Positions 3 to 20,378 of a DNA stretch of 64,000 bases are shown here, one piece after another. The translations under genes were made by a program, and so were the position numbers. Numbering within the stretch: position 1 is the stretch's first letter; the number at the start of each line of letters is the position of its first letter. The notes beneath the pieces are model-generated. The model made no database searches. It saw nothing but the letters and a program-made list of their open reading frames with translations, and had not been told where the DNA came from. Source of the stretch: Escherichia phage Ec_Makalu_002; the sequence record MN709127.1, one strand, 5' to 3'.

Positions 3-728
3 TTGCCAGAAGATATTGTGTTGAAACTTGCTGGTATATCAGAAGAGGCAAAGCGAAAACATGTATACACGGAAGAATCTAGACTGAAAATGTCGGAATC
101 ACAAAAACGTTTCATGGCTTCTCTTGATGAAGAAGAATTAAAACGTCGCCATAAGAAAAGAACTGATTCCGTTAAAGAACATTTTAGAAACTTGAGCGAT
201 GAAGAACGAGAAAGAAAGTATAAAGAACGTGGCAAGAAAATATCAAAGGCGTTAAGTAATAGATCAGAGGAAAAACTTAAATTACGAAGAGAAAGGCTTC
301 TACAAACTATAAACTCAAAGTCAGACGAAGAAAAACAAAGAATCGCCAAACTACTTTCAGATTCACAAAAACCGAAAGAAACATGGGGAAAATTTGATGA
401 GTTATATGCATTATGGATTGATCTGAATATGCCTGGTCAATATGTATTCAAGCGCGAGGCCATTAAACGTGGATACCCAGATAGGTCATATGATTACATC
501 GTTAAAGAAATGAAAAATAAGTACATAAAGGAGAATGGAAACGACATAATAAAATTAAATCCCAGAAAAAATTCTGGTGTCTGGGTATATTATGACGAAA
601 TATATAAGCTGTGGAAAGAAAATGGTATGCCTAGCGATAGAAAAACAAGAAAAATAGCGGTCGAGAATGGGTATCCCGACCAATGCTATCAAACTATAGT
701 AAAAGACTTTAAGAACTCACTTATTTAA
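3..728 (+). CDS. Homing-endonuclease-like protein, C-terminal part (5' end outside window)
   Basis: ORF open at window edge; basic NUMOD3-like repeats (TEESRLKMSESQK...) as in Seg-type endonucleases, plus two ~45-aa C-terminal repeats; catalytic N-terminus not in window. Confidence 0.45.
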   Translation: MPEDIVLKLAGISEEAKRKHVYTEESRLKMSESQKRFMASLDEEELKRRHKKRTDSVKEHFRNLSDEERERKYKERGKKISKALSNRSEEKLKLRRERLLQTINSKSDEEKQRIAKLLSDSQKPKETWGKFDELYALWIDLNMPGQYVFKREAIKRGYPDRSYDYIVKEMKNKYIKENGNDIIKLNPRKNSGVWVYYDEIYKLWKENGMPSDRKTRKIAVENGYPDQCYQTIVKDFKNSLI

Positions 729-1190
729 ACCTTTAAAACCGAACACTTTTTTTAATGTGTGTTCGGTTATGATTTTAAATTCCATATTATGTTTTTTACA
801 CAATGCTACTGCCGCTGCCCACTTTTCGGTATTTTTCGTCCACGTCCAAGCCTCCATCATATAACGCTGCTTTGTTTTAGTCGTTAATCGCTTTGGCTTT
901 TCTGGTGGTCTAGTCTCTTTGGCTGGCTTAATTTCCCATAAATGCTCTTTTCCATCATCAAACTTAACATAAACATCAACAAAATATCTGTGACGCTTAC
1001 CGTCTGTTGATGAATTGTAAGGAATTACAACGGTCTCAGATCCCCATTTAACCACATGAGGATTACGGTCACACCATTTAAAAACATGCAATTCCCAGCT
1101 TGAACGGTATGTGATTTTCCGTATATCCCCTTTATACTTTTCCTTATTCTCAGGAACATACTTGCCCTTATAAGTGTTAGATCCTCCCAT
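717..1190 (-). CDS. 4: Head completion protein gp4
   Basis: 157 aa, resembles T4 gp4 as recalled (YKGKY.PEN..KY.GD...I.YRSSWEL); ATG with GGAGG site; divergent from gene 53 as in T4. Confidence 0.7.
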   Translation of the reverse strand: MGGSNTYKGKYVPENKEKYKGDIRKITYRSSWELHVFKWCDRNPHVVKWGSETVVIPYNSSTDGKRHRYFVDVYVKFDDGKEHLWEIKPAKETRPPEKPKRLTTKTKQRYMMEAWTWTKNTEKWAAAVALCKKHNMEFKIITEHTLKKVFGFKGLNK

Positions 1191-19562: not shown

Positions 19563-20378
19563 ATGGAACATTATGTATACAAAATAACCAACAAAATAAA
19601 CGATAAGATTTATGTCGGTGTTCGGTCTTGTGATGGATTAGCCGAAGACGATACAAAATACATGGGAAGTGGAAAAATAATAAAACAAGCTATTAAACAT
19701 CATGGATTAGAAAATTTCACCAAAGAGATATTGTCAAAATTTGATAGCAGAGAAGATGCGGATAAAGAAGAGTCAAGGATTGTTACGGTTGATTTTGTCA
19801 AGAGAGAAGACACGTATAATATAGCAGAAGGCGGTGGAACTGTTTGTATGTGGAAGGTTTCTGATGAAGCAAAGATAGAAGAAATGAGAAAAAAGATCTC
19901 AGAGAAAAATACTGGAAGAAAACATACTAAAGATACAAGACAAAAGATGTCCGCATCTCAAAAGGGAAGGAAGCATACGGAAGAAACAAAAGAAAAGATG
20001 AGGCAAAATAACTTAGGAAAAGTTATTGCAGAAGAGACAAAAGAAAAGTTAAGGATGATTAATTTAGGAAAAAGACACACAGAAGAAACGCGAAGAAAAA
20101 TGTCTGATTCACATAAGGGTCTATCCTTATCCGATGAGGTGAAGGATAAGATAAGACAAAAACACACAGGACGTGTTTTTACTAAAGAATGGAGAGAAAG
20201 AATTAGCAAATCTAGAATCGGAATAACTAGCACTAGATCAAGAAGAATAAGCATCAACGGAGTGATATACAATAGCATAGGAGAAGCTGTTATAAAATTA
20301 AACGTTAAGAGAGGATTGATTGTCGGAAGACTTAAATCAAATACCGATAAAAACAAAAATTATTTCTTCGTAGATTAA
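19563..20378 (+). CDS. GIY-YIG homing endonuclease (Seg-like) with NUMOD3 repeats
   Basis: N-terminal YVYKITNKINDKIYVG...YMGSG (GIY-YIG-like); repeated HTEETKEKM/RRKMSDSHKG NUMOD3-like repeats. Confidence 0.7.
   Translation: MEHYVYKITNKINDKIYVGVRSCDGLAEDDTKYMGSGKIIKQAIKHHGLENFTKEILSKFDSREDADKEESRIVTVDFVKREDTYNIAEGGGTVCMWKVSDEAKIEEMRKKISEKNTGRKHTKDTRQKMSASQKGRKHTEETKEKMRQNNLGKVIAEETKEKLRMINLGKRHTEETRRKMSDSHKGLSLSDEVKDKIRQKHTGRVFTKEWRERISKSRIGITSTRSRRISINGVIYNSIGEAVIKLNVKRGLIVGRLKSNTDKNKNYFFVD

What the first reader, a model, noticed from the sequence alone, without database searches (positions are those of the whole stretch)
3..728. Second homing-endonuclease-like gene converging on gene 4
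The ORF entering from the left edge has NUMOD3-like basic repeats and two ~45-aa C-terminal repeats (GKFDELYALWIDLNMPGQYVFKREAIKRGYPDRSYDYIVKEMKNKY and GVWVYYDEIYKLWKENGMPSDRKTRKIAVENGYPDQCYQTIVKDFKN). It runs opposite to gene 4 and its 3' end overlaps the gene 4 stop by 12 bp. In T4, gene 2 lies at this side of gene 4 on the same strand as gene 4, so this looks like another endonuclease insertion in a structural region. The catalytic domain is outside the window.
Basis: partly seen in the sequence, partly recalled or inferred. Interest (0 to 1): 0.4.

Follow-up and report, generated by a model that had tools for sequence, protein, structure and literature searches.

The report
Mob-like HNH homing endonuclease gene
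The ORF at the left edge is the back two-thirds of a selfish HNH homing-endonuclease gene wedged, backwards, between two phage head genes; this is an ordinary kind of element for T4-type phages, though this copy shows a clear footprint of its arrival.

Summary
Window 3-728 (+) is the C-terminal 241 aa of a 340-aa ORF. That ORF is complete in the 99%-identical Krischvirus phages Cognac and PHB13 and in 22 metagenome contigs.

The missing N-terminus carries an intact HNH motif (E37, H39-H40, N59, H68, H72). These residues are at least 80% conserved, and all but E37 at least 90%, across about 75 relatives. AlphaFold predicts a beta-beta-alpha fold there.

The ORF lies antisense between gene 2 and gene 4. 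In Phi1, GEC-3S, ECD7 and SSG23 these genes are 11 bp apart. The roughly 1.13-kb insert sits exactly at the gene 4 stop codon and overlaps the new stop by 12 bp.

Two C-terminal repeats are real (41% identity, E 1e-13). Each is a three-helix module with no Pfam model. Relatives carry 1-3 copies, joined to either HNH or GIY-YIG-like heads. Only one repeat in the basic region scores as NUMOD3-type.

New here: a 375-bp stretch of gene 4 next to the insert (717-1091) carries 83 differences fixed between genomes with and without the endonuclease gene. The gene 2 side has none in 840 bp. This is a one-sided co-conversion footprint, so the target probably lies in gene 4.

Verdict: a new member of the known Mob-like family of freestanding endonuclease genes. 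Activity is untested. Interest is low to moderate.

The parts
3..728 (+). C-terminal 241 codons plus the stop of a 340-aa freestanding HNH homing-endonuclease gene. The HNH head (residues 1-99), the ribosome-binding site and the promoter lie about 425 bp beyond the left edge of the window.
3..377 (+). Charged helical linker, residues 100-225 of the full protein. It forms about six helices, each starting with an S/T-[DE]-E-E-like cap. In relatives this region holds NUMOD3 repeats.
   Evidence: AlphaFold model with pLDDT mostly above 85; Pfam NUMOD3 in 33/80 relatives
63..107 (+). The single NUMOD3-type unit that scores clearly: VYTEESRLKMSESQK.
   Evidence: 17.1 bits against a shuffle maximum of 8.3; 0/300 shuffles of the region reach the observed score
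384..521 (+). C-terminal three-helix module, copy 1 (W..FDELY.LW...P...F...A...GYPD..Y..IV).
579..716 (+). C-terminal three-helix module, copy 2 (tandem duplicate, 41% identical to copy 1).
717..728 (.). 12-bp convergent overlap between the endonuclease gene's last codons (…S L I stop) and the last codons of gene 4 (L N K stop). All four gene 4 codons are recoded synonymously relative to Phi1: CTT AAC AAA TAG becomes TTA AAT AAG TGA.
717..1190 (-). Gene 4 (head completion / head closure protein, 157 aa), the neighbour and probable target gene.
717..1091 (.). Foreign sequence tract inside gene 4 that is linked to the endonuclease gene. It holds 83 differences fixed between 11 sequences with the gene and 4 without it (22% of positions). 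Its distal end is the same in all sequences that carry the gene.
1071..1091 (.). Densest cluster of fixed differences (15 of 21 nt; gp4 ...ELHVFKWC... against ...ERWIMQWL...), at the far end of the tract. [quoted passage not shown] This is inference only.
737..768 (.). Perfect 10-bp hairpin 9 nt after the endonuclease gene's stop codon, inside the 3' coding end of gene 4. It is a possible terminator or RNA-stability element for the endonuclease transcript. It is strong in the allele linked to the endonuclease gene and weak in Phi1.
   Evidence: -15 kcal/mol, z -4.1, against -5 kcal/mol, z +0.4

Best explanation
This is a freestanding homing-endonuclease gene of the Mob-like HNH class, inserted in a sub-lineage of Krischvirus (RB49/Phi1-type, T4-related) coliphages.

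Location and expression. It sits exactly at the gene 4 stop codon, between gene 4 and gene 2, and points against both. The insert brings its own expression signals, which lie outside the window: a sigma-70-type promoter (TTGACA-17-TGcTAAAAT), a late-promoter-like GATAAATA, and an AGGAGG ribosome-binding site. A hairpin follows just past its stop codon.

Protein layout. The protein has an N-terminal beta-beta-alpha-metal HNH nuclease head. After that comes a long charged helical linker that is NUMOD3-derived. Two tandem copies of a ~45-aa three-helix module at the C-terminus probably read the DNA target.

Inferred mechanism. When a phage carrying the gene co-infects a cell with a relative that lacks it, the enzyme nicks or cuts the relative's DNA within gene 4. 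The likely site lies within about 375 bp of the insertion point. Recombinational repair from the carrier genome then copies the endonuclease gene together with the adjoining gene 4 segment. That segment is too different to be cut. This would explain why every genome with the gene carries the same foreign ~375-bp stretch of gene 4.

Shown: anatomy, insertion site, presence/absence polymorphism, an intact catalytic motif, and the one-sided linked tract.

Inferred: catalytic activity, target location, promoter use and the DNA-binding role of the C-terminal modules.
For: Full-length ORF and its setting:
- The ORF is complete at 340 aa in Cognac, PHB13 and 22 contigs from at least five independent sample sets, always in the order gene 2 | endonuclease gene | gene 4 | gene 53.
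- The insertion sits precisely at the gene 4 stop. Phi1, GEC-3S, ECD7 and SSG23 have gene 2 and gene 4 adjacent with an 11-bp spacer.

Family assignment:
- phrog_655 'homing endonuclease' at 1.7e-15 and phrog_12434 'HNH endonuclease' at 4.6e-6.
- An exhaustive HMMER search gives 258 relatives at E <= 1e-3.
- H39, H40, N59, H68 and H72 are at least 90% conserved and E37 about 81%; all six are present in this protein.
- AlphaFold (mean pLDDT 92.8) gives strands 37-40 and 60-63 followed by helix 65-79.
- Foldseek against viral models gives 35 hits at E <= 1e-3. Most of those that carry a name are annotated HNH, Mob-like or NUMOD homing endonucleases.
- tblastn hits include 'MobD-like homing endonuclease' and 'mobD'.

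Signs the gene is maintained and foreign:
- Variation among copies is mostly synonymous (6-9 synonymous against 2-3 nonsynonymous codons), with no frameshifts.
- GC content is 33.9% against 40.7% for the window.

Co-conversion footprint:
- Gene 4 alleles linked to the endonuclease gene are 99.2-99.4% identical to each other and about 80% to alleles from genomes without it. Those alleles are 97.9-99.2% identical to each other. Genes 2 and 53 show no such split.
- There are 83 fixed differences in window 717-1091 and none in 840 bp on the gene 2 side.
- Identity to Phi1 returns to 99-100% from about window 1200 onwards.

Expression signals:
- The promoter-like site lies within the inserted DNA. 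Only 89 of 20000 shuffles of the 126-nt leader give an equally good match.

Literature:
- Freestanding T4 endonucleases cut hundreds of bp from their own gene and drive co-conversion. [quoted passage not shown]
Against: - No nuclease assay exists for this protein or for any close relative. The best characterised relatives (T4 MobE, MobA) are only distantly similar.
- Pfam and NCBIfam give no hit for the protein itself.
- No solved structure matches by sequence or by fold. The HNH call therefore rests on motif conservation, the predicted fold and relatives' annotations.
- The catalytic head is not in the window. Its presence in this particular genome is assumed from 99% identical genomes.
- The linked gene 4 tract could be a hitch-hiking mosaic patch from a single recombination event rather than the product of repeated homing. 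All sequences that carry the gene share one tract endpoint, so only one acquisition event is documented.
- An early-type promoter and an antisense orientation are atypical for T4 homing-endonuclease genes.
Confidence: 0.82

Rival explanations
1. The gene is a domesticated or decaying relic. It descends from a homing endonuclease but no longer cuts DNA. It would persist as a sequence-specific DNA-binding protein or regulator, or simply because a clean deletion at the gene 4 stop / gene 2 start junction is rare.
For: - The NUMOD3 repeats have decayed to one scoring unit.
- There are no Pfam HNH or NUMOD3 hits on the protein itself.
- Only one acquisition event can be seen.
- The gene is wedged between two essential genes, where imprecise loss would be lethal; this argument is made for T4 in PMC2988022.
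Against: - All conserved HNH residues are intact.
- The ORF is full length in every one of about 25 copies, with mainly synonymous variation.
- The gene keeps a dedicated promoter and a strong ribosome-binding site.
Confidence: 0.1
2. The element functions mainly as a phage-against-phage competition or exclusion nuclease. It cuts co-infecting relatives to exclude their markers, and spread of its own gene is secondary or absent.
For: - Marker exclusion is a documented consequence of T4 freestanding endonucleases (PMC2988022).
- The candidate early promoter would express it before genome replication of a co-infecting phage.
Against: This reading is not exclusive of homing, because the same cut produces both outcomes. 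The tract linked to the gene is exactly what homing with co-conversion predicts.
Confidence: 0.05
3. The ORF is an unrelated accessory gene or a conserved structural gene, and its resemblance to endonucleases is coincidental.
For: - GenBank annotates it 'hypothetical protein' in both phages.
- There are no Pfam hits.
Against: - It is absent from most Krischvirus genomes.
- It has the HNH motif and the predicted HNH fold, a PHROG homing-endonuclease match, and 35 structural matches to viral models, most of whose named entries are endonucleases.
Confidence: 0.02

Closest known systems
T4 Mob proteins (MobA-MobE), freestanding HNH homing endonucleases; MobE is the characterised example
   Same: - Both have an N-terminal HNH head fused to a distinct C-terminal, presumed DNA-binding region.
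- Both are intergenic insertions between conserved phage genes.
- Both are present or absent between close relatives, with flanking sequence co-converted.
- Depositors annotate tblastn and Foldseek relatives as MobD-like, MobE or Mob-like (PMC2988022).
   Different: - Sequence identity to any annotated Mob-like protein is 34% or less, and usually 22-28%.
- It sits at a different locus (gene 2 / gene 4) and has a different probable target (gene 4).
- It points against its neighbours and carries its own sigma-70-type promoter. The T4 mob genes are co-oriented with their neighbours, and none of T4's endonuclease-specific promoters is early.
- Its C-terminal module is duplicated.
T4 segD (GIY-YIG homing-endonuclease gene between genes 23 and 24)
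   Same: It is the only T4 homing-endonuclease gene that lies antisense between two essential late structural genes. The element here has the same arrangement.
   Different: - segD belongs to a different nuclease class (GIY-YIG).
- No segD-specific promoter was found in T4, whereas this insert has a strong promoter-like site.
T4 SegG and SegF 'intronless homing'
   Same: The cleavage site is distant from the endonuclease gene, with polar co-conversion of the stretch between the site and the gene (PMC2988022 and PMC2993671). The 375-bp one-sided tract here fits that model.
   Different: SegG and SegF are GIY-YIG enzymes that make double-strand breaks. An HNH Mob-type enzyme is expected to nick one strand. 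The mechanism here is inferred from population data only.
I-HmuI and I-TevI modular architecture (catalytic head + NUMOD3-type helices + C-terminal helix-turn-helix)
   Same: The overall layout is the same: a nuclease head, an extended basic helical linker and a small helical C-terminal DNA-binding unit. One relative hits Pfam I-HmuI_NUMOD-like, and 33/80 hit NUMOD3.
   Different: - There is no detectable sequence or fold match to solved structures.
- The C-terminal three-helix module has no Pfam model. It is not shown to be a helix-turn-helix.

Membership tests
HNH (beta-beta-alpha-metal) nucleases | Catalytic motif: His(-His) on strand 1, a structural Asn before strand 2, and His/Asn metal ligands on the following helix | tested here: met
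   H39-H40, N59, H68 and H72 are present in the full-length protein (Cognac, P0001) and at least 90% conserved in 75-79 relatives; they are invariant in the 22-sequence head alignment. The N-9-H-4-H spacing matches what I recall for colicin E9; that comparison is from memory, not tested. This segment lies outside the window.
HNH (beta-beta-alpha-metal) nucleases | Beta-beta-alpha fold | tested here: met
   The AlphaFold model has pLDDT 97-99 over residues 1-100, with strands 37-40 and 60-63 followed by helix 65-79. This is a prediction only. Foldseek against the PDB gave no significant match for the whole chain.
HNH (beta-beta-alpha-metal) nucleases | Match to curated HNH profiles | tested here: inconclusive
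   Pfam and NCBIfam give no hit on this protein. Only 6 of 80 relatives hit a Pfam HNH model, and weakly. PHROG 'HNH endonuclease' phrog_12434 matches at 4.6e-6.
HNH (beta-beta-alpha-metal) nucleases | Metal-dependent DNA nicking or cleavage | not testable with these tools
   This needs a biochemical assay.
Freestanding homing-endonuclease genes of T4-type phages (Mob-like) | Located between conserved genes, not in an intron or intein, and present or absent among close relatives | tested here: met
   The gene is inserted at the gene 4 stop codon in the window, Cognac, PHB13 and 22 contigs. It is absent in Phi1, GEC-3S, ECD7, SSG23 and about 50 other Krischvirus records.
Freestanding homing-endonuclease genes of T4-type phages (Mob-like) | Co-conversion of flanking sequence, with a target allele in the carrier genome that is expected to resist cutting | tested here: met
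   83 fixed differences lie in a 375-bp tract of gene 4 linked to the endonuclease gene, against 0 in 840 bp on the other flank. The pattern is consistent with co-conversion but does not prove it. That the diverged allele resists cutting is assumed, not tested.
Freestanding homing-endonuclease genes of T4-type phages (Mob-like) | Super-Mendelian inheritance in mixed infections | not testable with these tools
   This needs phage crosses.
NUMOD3-containing nucleases (Pfam PF07460) | Repeated NUMOD3 motif detectable by the Pfam model | tested here: not met
   There is no Pfam NUMOD3 hit at E <= 1 on either the window fragment or the full protein. One unit scores 17.1 bits with a family-derived HMM, and 33/80 homologues do match NUMOD3. 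The linker therefore derives from NUMOD3 repeats, but this protein is not itself a clear member.

The most novel reading that the evidence does not exclude
The ~45-aa three-helix C-terminal unit (W-x3-DELY-x-LW ... P ... F ... A ... GYPD-x2-Y-x2-MV-x2-F) may be a nuclease-associated modular DNA-binding domain that has not been catalogued, in effect an additional NUMOD type.

- It has no Pfam model and no match to any solved structure.
- It occurs in 1-3 tandem copies.
- It is shuffled between HNH (Mob-like) and GIY-YIG/Seg-like catalytic heads. In this protein it is duplicated.

Separately, this gene would be a rare case of a T4-type homing-endonuclease gene that is antisense to its neighbours and driven by its own early promoter. 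It splits what in relatives is a tightly packed gene 4 - gene 2 pair.
Probability: 0.4. Interest if true: 0.4.

Novelty: new member of a known kind. Interest (0 to 1): 0.25.

Why it matters
For annotation, two GenBank 'hypothetical proteins' (QZI93719 in Cognac, QBQ74113 in PHB13) and their metagenomic copies can be named HNH homing endonucleases.

For biology, this is a clean natural example of intronless homing. It has base-pair-resolved insertion boundaries and a sharply one-sided 375-bp linked tract in an essential head gene. That predicts where the target lies and can be tested directly with phages already isolated (PHB13 or Cognac against Phi1 or RB49).

The shared C-terminal module may also interest those who engineer modular nucleases. 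None of this changes the general picture, because variable homing-endonuclease genes are a well-known feature of T4-type genomes.

Tried and rejected
- Pfam and NCBIfam scans of the fragment and of the full protein gave no meaningful hit. The only match was a sub-threshold TPR_21 hit at E 0.085-0.16, treated as noise from the charged helices.
- PDB sequence searches found nothing credible. I tried the full protein, the 80-sequence family profile, the N-terminal 100 aa and a 22-sequence HNH-head profile. The TRPM1, myosin and centrin hits at E of 0.2 or above are low-complexity noise.
- Foldseek against the PDB gave no hit at E <= 0.001, either for the full model or for the C-terminal 116-aa model. 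RecX three-helix repeats appear at probability 0.13-0.16 only, so the fold class of the module remains unassigned.
- The MAFFT alignment of the junction with and without the insert mis-placed the right flank. I re-derived the boundaries by direct comparison of the sequences.
- My first column-by-column comparison was corrupted by a 1-nt indel in contig L006. I repeated it with anchors on each side.
- I looked for the donor of the foreign gene 4 allele. There is no closer allele in the phage collection (best from a genome lacking the insert is 82%). Among 5.8 billion proteins the best is 86%, the same identity as Phi1 gp4 (22 of 157 residues differ), so it is probably the Phi1-type cluster; that is inferred, not checked. 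The donor remains unknown.
- I looked for a late promoter for gene 2 inside the insert on the minus strand and found only 7/8 matches (TCTAAATA, TTTAAATA). Gene 2 is therefore presumed to be transcribed by read-through from the gene 4 promoter across the antisense endonuclease gene. This is not shown.

Full report
**What is in the window.** Window 3-728 (+) is an open frame that runs in from the left edge and stops at TAA 726-728. The minus-strand ORF 717-1190 is gene 4, the head completion protein. It matches phrog_218 'head closure' at 1e-60 and Pfam TnsA-like N at 5e-21. It is followed by gene 53 (Pfam Phage_gp53, 4e-59) and gene 5.

**Source and full-length gene.** The first 1300 bases are 99.2-99.3% identical to the Krischvirus phages PHB13 (MK573636) and Cognac (MZ504877). 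All other Krischvirus records match only from position 730 onward. In Cognac and PHB13 the ORF is 340 aa and is annotated 'hypothetical protein'. It lies on the opposite strand between gene 2 (DNA end protector) and gene 4. The window therefore holds residues 100-340. An exact-sequence look-up found the same 340-aa protein on 22 contigs from several unrelated sequencing projects. In every place shown the order is gene 2 | ORF | gene 4 | gene 53.

**Insertion site.**
- In Phi1, GEC-3S, ECD7 and SSG23, gene 4 and gene 2 are co-oriented and 11 bp apart.
- Direct comparison shows about 1.13 kb inserted exactly at the gene 4 stop codon.
- The old stop (CTA on the plus strand) and the gene 2 ribosome-binding site survive on the left of the insert.
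- On the right, the endonuclease gene's last codons (S L I stop) overlap the last gene 4 codons. All four of those are recoded synonymously: CTT AAC AAA TAG becomes TTA AAT AAG TGA. The gp4 C-terminus ...KKVFGFKGLNK is unchanged.

**What the protein is.**
- The full protein matches phrog_655 'homing endonuclease' (1.7e-15) and phrog_12434 'HNH endonuclease' (4.6e-6). Pfam and NCBIfam find nothing.
- A word-indexed search of 5.8 billion proteins found only six relatives. Some are Vibrio proteins named 'NUMOD3 domain-containing DNA-binding protein'.
- An exhaustive HMMER search of 1.84 billion representatives found 258 at E <= 1e-3.
- In an 80-sequence alignment, H39, H40, N59, H68 and H72 are at least 90% conserved and E37 about 81%. 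All six are present in this protein. H39, H40, N59, H68 and H72 are invariant in a 22-sequence alignment of the head, and E37 is at least 90% conserved there.
- AlphaFold, run with that alignment, gives mean pLDDT 92.8. It predicts strands 37-40 and 60-63 followed by helix 65-79, the beta-beta-alpha arrangement of HNH nucleases. About six long charged helices follow, then two three-helix units.
- Foldseek against predicted viral structures gives 35 hits at E <= 1e-3. Most of those that carry a name are annotated HNH, Mob-like, MobD-like, MobE or NUMOD homing endonucleases of T4-type phages.
- Nothing in the PDB matches by sequence or by fold.
- tblastn finds distant relatives (22-34% identity) in many T4-type phages, annotated HNH or MobD-like and sitting at other loci, for example next to the dCTPase gene.

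**The repeats.**
- The two C-terminal repeats are 41% identical over 49 residues without gaps (E 1e-13; 0 of 5000 shuffles reach the score).
- Each folds as a three-helix unit. The C-terminal 116 aa modelled alone gives pLDDT 90.7. No solved structure is similar.
- A profile of this module finds it in 67 of 153 relatives: one copy in 52, two in 12 and three in 3.
- It is joined to HNH heads in 50 proteins. In about 11 it follows GIY-YIG-like or Seg-like heads, identified by the YxYKITN...YIG and YRTY...YxG...GSG motifs.
- It also ends a protein that the RB68 record calls segE. That protein belongs to a different homing-endonuclease PHROG, phrog_314.
- The module is thus a shuffled accessory domain of homing endonucleases. 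Its position makes a DNA-binding role likely, but that is untested. Pfam has no model for it.
- The 'NUMOD3-like basic repeats' are weaker than stated. Pfam NUMOD3 does not hit this protein. An HMM built from relatives' units finds one good unit (window 63-107, 17.1 bits, shuffle maximum 8.3) and only traces elsewhere. In 33/80 relatives Pfam NUMOD3 does match.

- Against Phi1, the gene 2 flank is 98.5-100% identical right up to the insert.
- The gene 4 flank is only 75-80% identical. Identity returns to 99-100% from about window 1200.
- Gene 4 alleles linked to the insert (window, Cognac, PHB13) are 99.2-99.4% identical to each other and about 80% to alleles from four phages without it. Those four are 97.9-99.2% identical to each other. 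Genes 2 and 53 show no such split.
- Across 11 sequences with the insert and 4 without, there are 83 fixed differences in window 717-1091 (375 bp). There are none in 840 bp on the gene 2 side, and none beyond 1091.
- Between the window and Phi1, 46 differing codons are synonymous and 22 are not.
- No closer gene 4 allele exists in the phage collection or in the protein database. The endonuclease gene and this stretch of gene 4 therefore arrived together from an unsampled, more distant phage.
- This is the pattern expected for intronless homing. Freestanding endonucleases cut hundreds of base pairs from their own gene, and the interval is co-converted (PMC2988022; PMC2993671).
- Selection should keep the endonuclease gene linked to an uncuttable target. 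I therefore infer that the target lies inside 717-1091.
- The densest cluster of changes is at the far end, 1071-1091 (15 of 21 nt, changing gp4 ELHVFKWC from ERWIMQWL). This is the leading candidate. The recoded stop-codon junction 717-729 is second. This is inference only.
- All copies share one tract endpoint, so only a single acquisition event is documented.

**Expression signals.**
- The inserted DNA, which lies outside the window, carries TTGACA-17-TGcTAAAAT. This is an 11/12 match with an extended -10, and only 89 of 20000 shuffles of the 126-nt leader do as well.
- It also carries a late-promoter-like GATAAATA and an AGGAGG ribosome-binding site.
- Nine nucleotides after the stop codon, inside gene 4, a perfect 10-bp hairpin (737-768) folds at -15 kcal/mol (z -4.1). 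The Phi1 equivalent reaches only -5 kcal/mol (z +0.4). It may end or stabilise the endonuclease transcript.
- No good late promoter for gene 2 lies in the insert. Gene 2 is presumably read through from the gene 4 promoter. That is not shown.
- In T4, only segD is antisense to its neighbours, and no endonuclease-specific promoter is early. This arrangement is therefore unusual but has a precedent.

**State of the gene.** All copies are full length. Differences among them are mostly synonymous (6-9 synonymous against 2-3 nonsynonymous codons). GC content is 33.9% against 40.7% for the window. This fits a maintained gene of foreign origin rather than a decaying one.

**Verdict.** The nuclease class is now identified as HNH, Mob-like. 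The element is a new, unannotated member of a well-known kind. The added value is threefold: the exact insertion site, the one-sided linked tract that points to gene 4 as the target, and the recognition of a Pfam-less C-terminal module shared across endonuclease classes. Enzymatic activity, target site and promoter use remain to be tested.

Noticed in passing
window 19563-20378 (+): A 271-aa ORF with a GIY-YIG head (YVYKITNKINDKIYVG...YMGSG) and a long run of canonical NUMOD3 repeats sits between two structural-gene ORFs. It is the only other ORF in the window that matches the family profile, and only over the NUMOD3 part (E 1e-17).
   Followed up: partly
L001:2737-3765 (Cognac) and L003:3131-4162 (Phi1 ORF130.1), about 1 kb left of the window edge: A second variable endonuclease gene (Pfam CapR homology domain, phrog_681 at 2.6e-79) lies immediately downstream of gene 2 on the same strand. 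It is present in Phi1, Cognac and ECD7. It is absent in PHB13, GEC-3S, SSG23 and contigs L004-L006. Its central part is only 61-78% identical between Cognac and Phi1, although the flanks are 99% identical.
   Followed up: partly
window 717-1190 (-): gp4, the head completion protein, matches Pfam Tn7_TnsA-like_N, a restriction-endonuclease-like fold, at 5e-21. It also weakly matches a PHROG 'endonuclease' family. A nuclease fold in a head-completion protein is worth noting.
   Followed up: no
L007-L009 and L011 (metagenome contigs): Several independent assemblies break at the same point about 1.3 kb upstream of the endonuclease gene. This is just where ORF130.1 is present or absent, which suggests mixed populations polymorphic for that second endonuclease gene.
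   Followed up: no
L012:10001-10837 (Vibrio parahaemolyticus contig MBTR01000002): The closest cellular homologues (33% identity; HNH head, NUMOD3 repeats and one C-terminal module) sit next to a large serine recombinase. The island also carries a Gp23-like capsid gene, an EcoRV-type restriction-modification pair and an anti-restriction gene. From the locus tags, a second paralogue appears to lie about 19 genes away on the same contig.
   Followed up: partly
whole window, both strands: Near-perfect sigma-70-type promoter matches (at least 11/12) are strongly strand-biased: 16 on the minus strand against 2 on the plus strand. I did not look into the cause.
   Followed up: no
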